From Escherichia coli (GTDB lineage: Bacteria; Pseudomonadota; Gammaproteobacteria; Enterobacterales; Enterobacteriaceae), in NCBI RefSeq assembly GCF_030013595.1, contig NZ_CP122768.1: a DNA stretch of 64,000 nt; one strand, written 5' to 3'. Shown here piece after piece: positions 49,501 through 52,500 of the stretch (positions are counted from its first letter, which is position 1; each line of letters opens with the position of its first letter). Made by a program: the position numbers.

Positions 49501-52500
49501 GTGCAGATGCTCGTAGTCCGGCACCACCTGGCGCAGAATACCGTCTTTCGACGCTTTGATGCTGACGTAACCGCGCGGCGGTTCAATACCGTTAGTGGCG
49601 TTAGAGATCTGCGAAGAGGTCTCGGACGGCATCAGAGCAGAAAGCGTGGAGTTACGCAGGCCGTGCGTTTTGATTGACTCACGCAGTGCTTCCCAGTCGT
49701 AATGCAGCGGCTCATTAGCGATGGCATCCAGATCTTTCTTATAGGTATCGATCGGCAGGATCCCTTTCGCGTAAGTGGTTTCGTTAAACCACGGGCACGC
49801 GCCTTGCTCTTTCGCCAGCTCATTAGAGGCTTTCAGCAGGTAATACTGAATAGCTTCGAAGGTTTTATGCGTCAGGTTGTTGGCGCTGCCGTCGGAGTAG
49901 CGTTTACCGTGCTTCGCCAGGTAGTAAGCGAAGTTGATCACACCAATACCCAGCGTACGACGACCCATCGCTCCACGTTTGGCGGCCGGGATCGGGTAAT
50001 CCTGATAGTCCAGCAGCGCGTCGAGTGCGCGTACCGCCAGAATCGCCAGCTCTTCCAGTTCATCCAGGCTATTAATTGCGCCCAGGTTGAAAGCAGACAG
50101 CGTACACAGCGCGATTTCACCGTTCTCGTCGTTGACATCATTCAGCGGTTTGGTCGGCAGGGCGATTTCCAGGCACAGGTTAGACTGGCGCACTGGCGCG
50201 ATGGCCGGATCAAACGGGCTATGGGTATTGCAGTGGTCAACGTTCTGAATATAGATACGACCGGTAGACGCACGTTCCTGCATCATCAGCGAGAACAGCT
50301 CAACGGCTTTCACACGCTGCTTGCGGATGCTGTCGTCTTTCTCATATTTGGTGTACAGGCGTTCAAACTCTTCCTGATCGGCGAAGAACGCGTCGTACAG
50401 CCCCGGCACGTCGGACGGGCTGAACAGAGTGATATCTTCACCTTTCAGCAGACGGGTATACATCAGTTTGTTGATTTGTACCCCGTAGTCCATATGACGC
50501 ACGCGGTTGCCTTCAACCCCACGGTTGTTTTTCAACACCAGCAGGCTTTCCACTTCCAGATGCCACATCGGGTAGAACAGCGTAGCCGCACCGCCACGCA
50601 CACCGCCCTGAGAGCAGGATTTCACCGCTGTCTGGAAATGCTTATAGAACGGAATACAACCGGTATGGAACGCTTCGCCACCGCGAATCGGGCTACCCAG
50701 CGCACGAATACGCCCGGCATTGATGCCGATCCCGGCACGCTGGGAAACGTATTTAACAATCGCGCTGGAGGTGGCGTTAATGGAATCCAGGCTGTCACCG
50801 CACTCGATCAGTACGCAGGAGCTGAACTGACGAGTCGGGGTACGCACGCCGGACATGATTGGCGTCGGCAGCGAAATTTTAAATGTGGAAACCGCGTCGT
50901 AAAAACGCTTCACGTATTGCAGGCGCGTTTCACGCGGGTAGTTCGAGAACAGGCACGCGGCAACCAGAATATAAAGGAACTGGGCGCTTTCGTAGATTTC
51001 GCCGGTCACGCGGTTCTGTACCAGATATTTGCCTTCCAGCTGCTTAACGGCAGCATAAGAGAAGGTCATATCACGGTCGTGATCGATAAACGTGTCCATC
51101 TGCTTGAACTCTTCTTCCGTGTAGTCTTCCAGCAGATGATTATCGTATTTGCCCATCTCGACCATTTTCACCACGTGGTCGTACAGCGCAGGCGGCTCAA
51201 ACTGGCCGTAGGCTTTTTTACGCAGGTGGAAGATCGCCAGGCGCGCGGCGAGATACTGATAATCCGGCGCATCACGGGAGATCAGGTCTGCGGCAGCCTT
51301 AATAATGGTTTCGTGGATGTCAGAGGTCTTGATACCGTCATAAAACTGAATGTGGGAGCGCAGTTCGACCTGGGAAATCGAAACGTTATGCAGTCCTTCT
51401 GCCGCCCAATCCAGAACGCGATGGATTTTGTCGAGATTGATGCGCTCTGTGCTACCGTCGCGCTTTGTCACCAGCAGATTCTGATTCATGTATGTCGTAC
51501 CTGTTTTTGGAATTCTTTCCGCAATAGTTTCATGCAGACTACCTGTAGTGAGGGAAGCTGCTTAGAACACTATATATAGGGGGTATGTTTGGGATTCACT
51601 GCAAGATAGTGTGAAAATGGCCCTCTTGCAAGTGCATAACTTTGTGGATAACTCAGGAAGGAAAAAGTGGCTTTCGCGCACCTTAGGTCAGACAAGGTGT
51701 CCGGGAAAGTCAATGGGAAGAGAAAAATTTGTTAAAAATAACTGTTCGGCGATTTCTTGAACGGAAGAATAGGTTAGATAAATTGATATAGATGGTTTAT
51801 TAATCTTTTGGCTAATGATTGCAAAAATTGATCTAAGCACGAATCATCGCATAATCTGATGTATCAGTTCTGGTCAATATATAAGCGAATGTAAGCGATT
51901 GTTGATATCGAAATGGTTGTTTTCTCTTCGGTTATTGTTAAATGCGAAGCCATTTTGTTAATTTACCTTATATTATAAGAAAATTATTCATTACTTTAAT
52001 TCAGTTTAAATATAACTAATATCCCTTAAGGTGATTAACTTGAATTATGACGCACTGATATTATTCATGAAATAATAACAAAATAGCCATTGCACGGGGT
52101 TGAACAAATTACAAAAGAAAAATAACCCATATCGTATAATGCGATTAAATATGCCGTCTTATAGAAAATGATGGTCAGATTAATATGCGGATTATTTTTC
52201 TACGCAAGGAGTATTTATCTTTACTCCCGTCAATGATTGCGTCTCTTTTCTCTGCTAACGGTGTCGCGGCGGCCATTGATTTATGCCAGGGATATGATAT
52301 CAAAGCGAGTTGTCACGCCAGCAGGCAAAGCCTTTCAAGCTTTACGCAGGACTGGAGCATCGCCGATGGGCAATGGCTGGTTTTTTCGGATATGACTAAT
52401 AACGCCAGCGGTGGGGCCGTATTTTTGCAACAAGGAGCGGAGTTTTCTCTATCGCCAGAAAATGAAACTGGAATGACTCTGTTTGCCATTAATACTGTCT

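What the first reader, a model, noticed from the sequence alone, without database searches (positions are those of the whole stretch)
51490..52184. 695-bp non-coding region between divergent nrdA and yfaL: compact nrd control sites plus a long AT-rich yfaL leader
The nrdA-proximal 170 bp carries two NrdR-box-like palindromes spaced about 31 bp apart and a DnaA box. The remaining roughly 500 bp upstream of yfaL is extremely AT-rich with no ORF, as expected for an H-NS-silenced adhesin promoter, but it is large enough to hide a small RNA or small protein.
Basis: partly seen in the sequence, partly recalled or inferred. Interest (0 to 1): 0.25.

Follow-up and report, generated by a model that had tools for sequence, protein, structure and literature searches.

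The report
Known nrdA control region, silenced yfaL promoter
This 695-bp gap in an E. coli chromosome is the well-studied control region of the ribonucleotide reductase genes joined to a very AT-rich, H-NS-bound silent promoter region of the adhesin gene yfaL, and I found no convincing hidden gene or small RNA in it, so it is ordinary.

Summary
The window is E. coli, and 51490-52184 is exactly the gap between nrdA (- strand) and yfaL/ehaC (+ strand).

The gap splits into two evolutionary units at about 51763.
- Left unit (274 bp): the nrdAB 5'UTR, promoter and upstream regulatory DNA. It holds three phased NrdR-like boxes, two tandem DnaA boxes and two published HusR boxes. It is 95-99% identical across four Escherichia species.
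- Right unit (421 bp, 28.5% GC): the lowest-GC stretch of the 64-kb window. It diverges along with the variable yfaL allele. It appears in the literature as an H-NS-bound, transcriptionally near-silent "promoter island".

- RefSeq annotates a 47-aa ORF, ypaB (51617-51760), across the nrdA promoter. I show it is not conserved as a coding sequence. Its start codon is lost in B2-type E. coli, it carries a premature stop in three other Escherichia species, and its substitutions show no codon bias.
- 2025 binding data make box1 plus a downstream box2 the functional NrdR operator, not the classical box0 plus box1 pair.

I found no conserved ORF, Rfam match, terminator or conserved RNA structure in the AT-rich part. 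One weak lead remains: a 13-nt complementarity between the leader and the first yfaL codons. The finding is already known and of low interest.

The parts
49204..51489 (-). nrdA coding sequence (class Ia ribonucleotide reductase alpha subunit)
   Evidence: 761-aa ORF. RefSeq annotation of matching genomes.
51490..51599 (-). nrdA 5' UTR, about 107-110 nt. It contains NrdR boxes 1 and 2. B2-type strains have a 13-bp deletion at 51509-51521.
   Evidence: The position follows from the -10 hexamer at 51603-51608 and from the published 110-nt leader (my own knowledge). Deletion. Folding is not more stable than shuffled sequence (z = 0.06).
51536..51551 (.). NrdR box 2 (TCACTACAGGTAGTCT in nrdA orientation). 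It scores 11/16 to the consensus and starts 31 bp from box 1.
   Evidence: The functional box1+box2 pair binds with Kd 113 nM in PMC12176259. This window differs from K-12 (GTAC...) at the two outer positions.
51567..51582 (.). NrdR box 1 (CCCCTATATATAGTGT), 14/16 to the consensus, invariant in all 9 Escherichia sequences compared
51599..51614 (.). Classical NrdR 'box 0' (TCACACTATCTTGCAG, 10/16), overlapping the nrdA -10 hexamer TATCTT (51603-51608)
   Evidence: Box0+box1 binds NrdR only weakly, Kd above 6000 nM.
51626..51631 (-). nrdA -35 hexamer TTGCAA, 17 bp upstream of TATCTT
   Evidence: Read from the sequence. Invariant across species.
51631..51651 (-). Two tandem DnaA boxes, TTATGCACT (51631-39) and TTATCCACA (51643-51), spaced 12 bp start to start and abutting the -35 hexamer
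   Evidence: repeat family D2. Invariant across species and in the P1/P7 copies.
51652..51763 (-). Conserved nrdA upstream regulatory block. It holds two HusR (YnfL) boxes (51654-51669 and 51689-51704) and an A/T tract (51714-51763).
   Evidence: 51600-51763 is 95-99% identical across Escherichia species, with a sharp drop after 51763. HusR boxes: PMC12844172, located.
51617..51760 (+). ypaB, an annotated 47-aa ORF lying across the nrdA promoter and upstream region. It is most likely not a functional protein gene.
   Evidence: Annotation. ATG changes to CTG in B2-type strains, and TGG changes to TGA at 51670 in E. albertii, E. whittamii and Escherichia sp. E1V33. Substitutions are 5 synonymous to 12 non-synonymous, the same as in other frames. 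No Pfam or NCBIfam family. CRISPRi paper: 'ypaB contains the promoter of nrdA'.
51764..52184 (.). AT-rich (28.5% GC) H-NS-bound 'promoter island' upstream of yfaL. It evolves together with the variable yfaL allele.
   Evidence: Composition. Identity to the window is 94% for K-12, 84% for a B2 strain and about 53-55% for other Escherichia species. It has 6 promoter-like sites (14.3 per kb against 0.84 per kb for the window), but this is not above composition-matched shuffles. Literature.
51828..51855 (+). Promoter-like site TTGATC-16-CATAAT, the yfaL promoter proposed from RpoD genomic SELEX
   Evidence: and PMC3946193. The -10 hexamer is not conserved in other Escherichia species.
52116..52201 (+). 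Candidate leader-to-coding-sequence stem. 52116-52128 pairs with 52189-52201 (yfaL codons 2-6) and encloses the ribosome-binding region and the ATG. An inner hairpin pairs 52153-52158 with 52170-52175.
   Evidence: Covariation is not above controls, so the result is inconclusive.
52185..55943 (+). yfaL/ehaC, an AIDA-I-type autotransporter adhesin
   Evidence: 1252-aa ORF. Pfam Autotransporter, AC_1, PATR and Chlam_PMP domains. RefSeq annotation.

Best explanation
The gap consists of two juxtaposed regulatory regions that are already described for E. coli K-12.

(1) 51490-51763 belongs to nrdAB. Transcription starts leftward at about 51596-51599 from a TTGCAA-17-TATCTT promoter.
- NrdR loaded with ATP/dATP represses by binding box 1 plus box 2 in the early transcribed region.
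- DnaA acts at two tandem boxes abutting the -35 hexamer.
- The roughly 110 bp further upstream carries additional activator sites: HusR boxes, and, from older literature, Fis and IciA sites and an AT-rich cell-cycle element.
- The annotated ORF ypaB is a by-product of this conserved DNA, not a conserved protein gene.

(2) 51764-52184 is the AT-rich upstream region of the cryptic adhesin gene yfaL. Its composition makes it a dense field of promoter-like hexamers and a platform for H-NS. H-NS keeps yfaL, and pervasive transcription, silent under laboratory conditions.

Shown here: the sites, their phasing and conservation, the conservation cliff, the decay of ypaB, and the absence of RNA or ORF signals. 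Taken from papers: NrdR, HusR and H-NS binding. Inferred: the mechanism of silencing in this particular strain.
For: - Identity and coordinates.
- Sites and chance levels.
- Invariance of box 1, box 0/-10, the -35 hexamer and both DnaA boxes across E. coli, E. albertii, E. whittamii and Escherichia sp. E1V33.
- NrdR binding constants for the box pairs.
- HusR boxes and gel shifts.
- CRISPRi guides in ypaB are lethal because they block the nrdA promoter.
- Conservation cliff at about 51763. 51600-51763 is 95-99% identical, against 53-55% for 51764-52184 between species. The AT-rich part tracks yfaL divergence.
- ypaB start loss, premature stops and lack of codon bias. No protein family.
- H-NS and promoter-island literature.
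- yfaL needs an inserted constitutive promoter to be studied.
- Negative evidence for hidden elements.
Against: - No expression or binding data exist for this strain. The nrdA transcription start and the Fis/IciA sites are taken from memory of older papers that I could not open.
- 'ypaB' RNA has been reported. RT-qPCR shows a HusR-dependent rise in stationary phase, and it is induced 9.6-fold by AZT. So some + strand or unassigned transcription over 51617-51760 may exist.
- The promoter-like density of the AT-rich part is no higher than its base composition predicts.
- A near-consensus H-NS nucleation motif occurs only once, which is not above chance.
Confidence: 0.85

Rival explanations
1. 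ypaB is a genuine, lineage-restricted small-protein gene, transcribed divergently from within the nrdA promoter region.
For: RefSeq annotates it in most E. coli genomes. ypaB mRNA has been measured by RT-qPCR and RNA-seq. A ypaB clone was recovered as a multicopy suppressor. P1 and P7 carry an ORF (UpfO / Upf91.6) starting at the same ATG.
Against: - The start codon is ATG to CTG in B2-type strains. That allele class has about 1050 of 5425 genomes in the 80-90% identity band, and every sampled member lacks the annotation.
- TGG to TGA at codon 18 in three other Escherichia species, although the DNA is 95% identical.
- It is annotated as a pseudogene with an internal stop in strain EC2001.
- Substitutions are 5 synonymous to 12 non-synonymous, the same as in the other five frames.
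- The phage ORFs diverge in length and sequence after residue 17.
- There is no Shine-Dalgarno sequence upstream (AGTGTGAAAATG) and no protein family.
- The ATG sits inside the nrdA -35/-10 spacer.
Confidence: 0.08
2. The AT-rich region encodes an independent small RNA or a conserved small protein.
For: It spans 421 bp without annotation and holds several ORFs of 10-29 aa. Promoter-like sites occur on both strands.
Against: - No Rfam match even at E-value up to 10.
- No terminator-like site.
- Folding z-scores are -0.33 and -0.23.
- The consensus structure energy is only -5.4 kcal/mol over 357 columns.
- No ORF of 20 aa or more is intact in all nine E. coli sequences. The few ORFs of 11-14 aa that are intact lack ribosome-binding sites.
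- The sequence is only about 53-55% identical between Escherichia species.
- Promoter islands are reported to yield only 9-14-nt abortive products.
- No paper in the searchable library links yfaL to an sRNA.
Confidence: 0.05
3. The last ~70 nt before yfaL form a translation-blocking structure. 52116-52128 pairs with yfaL codons 2-6 (52189-52201), and an inner hairpin covers the GAUGG ribosome-binding element. This would add a post-transcriptional lock to H-NS silencing.
For: - The arms are 13 nt long and 92% complementary.
- The stem appears in the minimum-free-energy fold of non-B2 haplotypes, with z from -1.7 to -3.9.
- 11-13 of 13 pairs are kept in non-B2 haplotypes. One A-U to G-C double change occurs at 52121/52196. 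The C·A mismatch at 52126/52191 is repaired on opposite sides in O157 and in K-12.
- The inner hairpin is 100% paired, with two one-sided G·U to A-U changes.
- E. albertii and strain SCPM-O-B-8794 also show a leader-to-coding-sequence stem, though built from non-homologous bases.
Against: - Covariation is not above the shuffle control (0.078 against 0.075, with 191 of 500 shuffles as high).
- B2-type haplotypes keep only 9-10 of 13 pairs and fold differently.
- E1V33 and E. whittamii show no such stem, with z near 0.
- A-rich and U-rich tracts pair easily.
- It is unknown whether the 5' arm is transcribed at all.
Confidence: 0.12
4. Part of the AT-rich region also serves nrdAB, as a distal H-NS repression site or a distal promoter, rather than only yfaL.
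For: H-NS is listed as a repressor of nrdAB. An upstream AT-rich cis element is required for nrd cell-cycle control, according to a paper title in the reference list. Three - strand promoter-like sites point toward nrdA. 'ypaB' read counts rise with nrdA-inducing stress.
Against: Conservation drops sharply at 51763. Any nrd function to the right of that point would therefore have to depend on composition rather than sequence. The relevant primary papers could not be read.
Confidence: 0.25

Closest known systems
E. coli K-12 nrdAB promoter/operator region (NrdR boxes, tandem DnaA boxes, upstream activator sites)
   Same: Same locus and the same architecture. Box 1, box 0/-10, the -35 hexamer, both DnaA boxes and both HusR boxes are identical to K-12. 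51600-51763 is 99.4% identical to K-12.
   Different: The two outer bases of NrdR box 2 differ (TC here, GT in K-12). This gives 11/16 rather than 10/16 matches to the consensus. YpaB residue 2 is A here and T in K-12.
Promoter island 2342143_534 (yfaL/ypaB) of Panyukov & Ozoline 2013, an H-NS-bound and transcriptionally defective AT-rich region next to horizontally acquired genes
   Same: Same intergenic position and a similar length. It has extreme AT content and the highest density of promoter-like sites in the 64-kb window.
   Different: This strain's copy is only 94% identical to K-12. H-NS and RNA polymerase occupancy were not measured for it. In my scan the promoter-like density is explained by base composition alone.
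'nrdA-like promoter' and DnaA boxes upstream of hot in phages P1 and P7
   Same: Window 51613-51742 is 95.4% identical to P7 and 82.6% identical to P1. The -35 hexamer plus both DnaA boxes form an invariant core, and an ORF (UpfO) starts at the ypaB ATG.
   Different: The phage copies lack the -10 hexamer, the NrdR boxes and nrdA. They sit co-oriented with hot. They are already annotated in M95666 and NC_005856.
agn43 (Ag43) phase-variable autotransporter promoter (Dam/OxyR switch)
   Same: It is the upstream region of an E. coli AIDA-type autotransporter adhesin whose expression is normally restricted.
   Different: There is no cluster of GATC sites, only one GATC in the whole gap. No invertible-element repeats were found. 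Silencing here is attributed to H-NS.

Membership tests
NrdR operator | Two 16-bp palindromic boxes (consensus acaCwAtATaTwGtgt) placed 31-32 bp start to start, at an nrd promoter | tested here: met
   Boxes at 51536, 51567 and 51599 score 11, 14 and 10 of 16, with spacings of 31 and 32 bp. Box 1 is unique in 64 kb, against 0.11 expected by chance.
NrdR operator | NrdR protein binds in an ATP/dATP-dependent way | not testable with these tools
   Published for the K-12 sequence: box1+box2 Kd 113 nM, box0+box1 above 6000 nM. The window's box 2 differs at two outer bases.
DnaA box | 9-mer matching TTATNCACA | tested here: met
   51643-51651 is a perfect TTATCCACA. Four TTATNCACA matches occur in the window against 2.1 expected, so a single box is not significant on its own. 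The tandem pair 12 bp apart is invariant across species and in P1/P7.
H-NS-silenced promoter island | Extended AT-rich tract with an unusually high density of promoter-like sites | tested here: inconclusive
   28.5% GC, the lowest in the window. 14.3 sites per kb against 0.84 per kb, the maximum in the window. However, 6 sites against 3.7 +/- 2.2 in composition-preserving shuffles.
H-NS-silenced promoter island | H-NS occupancy and very low productive transcription | not testable with these tools
   Reported for K-12 in all ChIP studies compiled in PMC3661553 and flagged in PMC3946193. The motif scan for TCGWTWAATT gave one 1-mismatch hit, not above chance.
Small-protein gene (ypaB) | ORF kept intact, with purifying selection at the codon level, among relatives | tested here: not met
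   Start codon lost in B2-type strains, a premature stop in three species, and 5 synonymous to 12 non-synonymous changes as in the other frames. Annotated as a pseudogene in EC2001.
Small-protein gene (ypaB) | Membership of a curated protein family | tested here: not met
   No NCBIfam hit at E-value up to 1 and no Pfam hit at E-value up to 0.01.
Bacterial small RNA / cis-regulatory RNA | Match to a described family, an intrinsic terminator, or a structure more stable or more conserved than chance | tested here: not met
   Rfam: nothing in the gap at E-value up to 10. No terminator-like sites. Folding z-scores of -0.33, -0.23 and 0.06. RNAalifold consensus energy of -5.4 kcal/mol.
Phase-variation switch of an adhesin promoter (Dam/OxyR type or invertible element) | Clustered GATC sites, or flanking inverted repeats with a recombinase | tested here: not met
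   One GATC in the gap. Only short AT-rich inverted repeats. No recombinase ORF.

The most novel reading that the evidence does not exclude
The yfaL ribosome-binding region and start codon may be locked inside a leader-to-coding-sequence RNA structure (52116-52128 pairing with codons 2-6 at 52189-52201, plus an inner hairpin). This would give the cryptic adhesin a second, post-transcriptional silencing layer beneath H-NS. Relatedly, the RNA reported as 'ypaB mRNA' may be a non-coding divergent transcript from the nrdA promoter region, induced by replication stress and by HusR, rather than a message for a protein.
Probability: 0.12. Interest if true: 0.3.

Novelty: already known. Interest (0 to 1): 0.1.

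Why it matters
It matters little for discovery. Every major element is already described for E. coli K-12: the NrdR, DnaA and HusR sites, the H-NS-bound promoter island, and the phage P1 copy of the nrdA promoter segment.

The useful outcomes are corrective.
- ypaB, still annotated as a protein in thousands of RefSeq genomes, behaves as a chance ORF riding on conserved regulatory DNA. Phenotypes or expression changes assigned to 'ypaB' are better read as effects on the nrdA promoter or on its DnaA/NrdR sites.
- The functional NrdR pair lies downstream of the transcription start, not over the -10 hexamer.
- The sharp conservation boundary at 51763 marks where the core nrdAB unit meets the fast-evolving yfaL unit.

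Tried and rejected
- Rfam scan at a permissive threshold: nothing in the gap.
- Terminator scan: none.
- Single-sequence folding of both strands of the AT-rich part and of the nrdA 5'UTR: no better than shuffles.
- RNAalifold on seven haplotypes and species: no conserved structure.
- Small-ORF survey down to 10 aa, with an intactness test across nine E. coli sequences: nothing convincing.
- H-NS nucleation motif and degenerate Fis consensus scans: not above chance.
- Direct, inverted and tandem repeats: only the DnaA-box pair and short AT-rich matches.
- Dam-site clustering for phase variation: a single GATC.
- Genome-collection scan with the DnaA-box pair: only Escherichia species share it. 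The other hits are chance matches or P1-like or contaminant contigs.
- Covariation test of the leader-to-coding-sequence stem: inconclusive.
- Literature dead ends. Cendra 2013, Sun 1994, Augustin 1994 and Hemm 2008 are not held. One badly designed search was wasted. No supplementary files were held for a small-protein paper. The Stringer et al. ribosome-profiling table is cut long before 2.34 Mb, so its silence is uninformative.
- I ran no further search on YpaB, because the DNA comparisons already settled the question.
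Full report
**What is there.** The window is an E. coli chromosome segment. 51300-52400 is 99.9% identical to strain CFSAN018748, and matches were found in 5425 of 5426 complete genomes. nrdA is the 761-aa ORF at 49204-51489 on the - strand. yfaL/ehaC is the 1252-aa ORF at 52185-55943 on the + strand, with autotransporter, autochaperone and passenger-repeat domains. GC content is 44.6% for 51490-51720 and 28.7% for 51721-52184, against 51.5% for the window. 51764-52184 is essentially the lowest-GC 421-bp stretch of all 64 kb.

**The nrdA-proximal sites.** I scored every 16-mer against the NrdR consensus ACACWATATATWGTGT.
- Box 1 (51567-51582) scores 14/16. It is the only site within 3 mismatches of the perfect palindrome in the window, against 0.11 expected by chance.
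- Two weaker boxes lie in phase with it: 51599-51614 (10/16, 32 bp away, overlapping the -10 hexamer TATCTT) and 51536-51551 (11/16, 31 bp away, inside the 5'UTR).
Rozman Grinberg et al. 2025 measured Kd 113 nM for box1 plus the new downstream box2, and more than 6000 nM for the classical box0+box1 pair.
- The -35 hexamer TTGCAA (51626-51631) abuts two tandem DnaA boxes: TTATGCACT (51631-39) and the perfect TTATCCACA (51643-51).
- Two published HusR (YnfL) boxes lie at 51654-51669 and 51689-51704.
- Box 1, box 0/-10, the -35 hexamer and both DnaA boxes are invariant in the nine sequences compared: five E. coli haplotypes, strain SCPM-O-B-8794, Escherichia sp. E1V33, E. whittamii and E. albertii.

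**Two evolutionary units.** Alignments show a cliff at about 51763.
- 51600-51763 is 95-99% identical between Escherichia species. That is higher than nrdA coding DNA (92.6-98%) or the 5'UTR (84-98%).
- 51764-52184 is 94% identical to K-12, 84% to a B2 strain and only 53-55% between species. This parallels the divergent yfaL alleles (70-95%).
- Across 5425 genomes, the AT-rich part falls below 90% identity to the window in 1050 and between 90 and 95% in 2986.
- So the left 274 bp belong with the nrdAB core unit, and the right 421 bp belong with the fast-evolving adhesin unit.

**ypaB.** Its ATG sits in the spacer between the nrdA -35 and -10 hexamers. [quoted passage not shown] My comparison argues that it is not a protein-coding gene under selection.
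- The ATG is CTG in B2-type E. coli, where PGAP (NCBI's annotation pipeline) does not call the gene.
- Codon 18 is TGA in E. albertii, E. whittamii and Escherichia sp. E1V33, although the DNA is about 95% identical.
- One E. coli strain carries it as a pseudogene with an internal stop.
- The 17 variable sites split 5 synonymous to 12 non-synonymous, the same as in the other five frames.
- There is no Shine-Dalgarno sequence and no protein family.
- Reports of 'ypaB' RNA or phenotypes are more simply read as effects of, or on, the nrdA control DNA.

**The AT-rich part.** It corresponds to promoter island 2342143_534 'yfaL/ypaB' of Panyukov & Ozoline.
- That island is listed as H-NS-bound according to all ChIP studies compiled there.
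- It belongs to a class that binds RNA polymerase but yields almost no productive transcripts.
- RpoD genomic SELEX marks the spacer with an H-NS flag and proposes TTGATC-16-CATAAT for yfaL. My scan finds this site at 51828-51855.
- GadE/GadX regulation of yfaL has also been reported.
- yfaL's biofilm phenotype is studied with an inserted constitutive promoter.
- The region has the highest density of promoter-like sites in the window (14.3 per kb against 0.84 per kb). This is what its composition predicts, since shuffles give 3.7 +/- 2.2 against 6 observed.
- The yfaL transcription start is not established, so calling the region a 'leader' is unverified.

**Search for hidden elements.**
- No Rfam match at E-value up to 10 and no terminator-like site.
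- No excess folding stability on either strand (z = -0.33 and -0.23).
- No conserved structure (-5.4 kcal/mol over 357 columns).
- No ORF of 20 aa or more is intact in all nine E. coli sequences. Only a few ORFs of 11-14 aa without ribosome-binding sites are intact in all.
- No Dam-site cluster and no invertible-element repeats.
- The only lead is a 13-nt complementarity between 52116-52128 and yfaL codons 2-6 (52189-52201). It encloses the ribosome-binding region and the ATG.
  - It appears in the minimum-free-energy folds of non-B2 haplotypes (z from -1.7 to -3.9).
  - It shows one A-U to G-C double change and two separate 'repairs' of a mismatch.
  - However, B2 haplotypes break it, and the covariation test is not above shuffles. 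I rate it at about 0.12.

**Comparison with what is known, and verdict.** The architecture is that of the K-12 nrdAB promoter/operator. The AT-rich half is a catalogued H-NS-bound promoter island. Even the side observation is already annotated in GenBank: phages P1 and P7, and 235 places on E. coli plasmid records (the one examined is P1-like), carry window 51613-51742 upstream of hot. The finding is real but already known. Interest is low (0.1).

Noticed in passing
window 51613-51742; L005 (P1) 1201-1315; L006 (P7) 1201-1329; L003 3001-3115: Phages P1 and P7, and 235 places on E. coli plasmid records (the one examined, L003, is P1-like), carry a copy of the nrdA -35/DnaA-box/upstream segment just upstream of hot, the pol III theta homologue. 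P7 is 95.4% identical and P1 82.6%. The -35 hexamer plus both DnaA boxes form an invariant 40-nt core. This is already annotated as 'nrdA-like promoter' and 'dnaA box' in M95666 and NC_005856.
   Followed up: yes
window 51509-51521: B2-type E. coli strains (PBP8, clone D i14, isolate 127) lack 13 bp of the nrdA 5'UTR. E. whittamii lacks 9 bp at the same spot. The deletion removes the small GGAA...UUCC hairpin of the predicted UTR fold, so that hairpin appears dispensable.
   Followed up: partly
L030 1304-2500 (insertion after about window 51949); L043 2559-3327: Insertion sequences land in the AT-rich region. An IS5-like ISKpn26 sits in strain EC2001. An IS1B in strain UTME-10 removes the promoter-proximal leader and the yfaL N-terminus.
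   Followed up: partly
window 51550-51551: The two outer bases of the functional NrdR box 2 are polymorphic: TC here and in B2 strains, GT in K-12 and O157, GC in SCPM-O-B-8794, TT in E1V33 and E. whittamii. The core ACTACAGGTAGT is kept within E. coli.
   Followed up: partly
window 52185-52191: The annotated yfaL start varies. B2-type strains are annotated from an ATG 6 nt upstream (MNMRII...). The aligned start region differs entirely in E. albertii, E1V33 and E. whittamii. The signal-peptide region is only about 70% identical between species.
   Followed up: no
window 8537-9046: The second lowest-GC stretch of the window (below 33% GC) lies in the elaD/yfbL region. Only 553 of 5426 genomes have a match covering at least 80% of the 1-kb query, so the locus is variable.
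   Followed up: partly
L026 156-221; L024 2142-2280: Contigs labelled Acinetobacter idrijaensis (221 bp) and a Bacillota MAG contain 66-140 bp that are 84-100% identical to the nrdA/P7 segment. Contamination or P1-like DNA in those assemblies is the likely cause.
   Followed up: no
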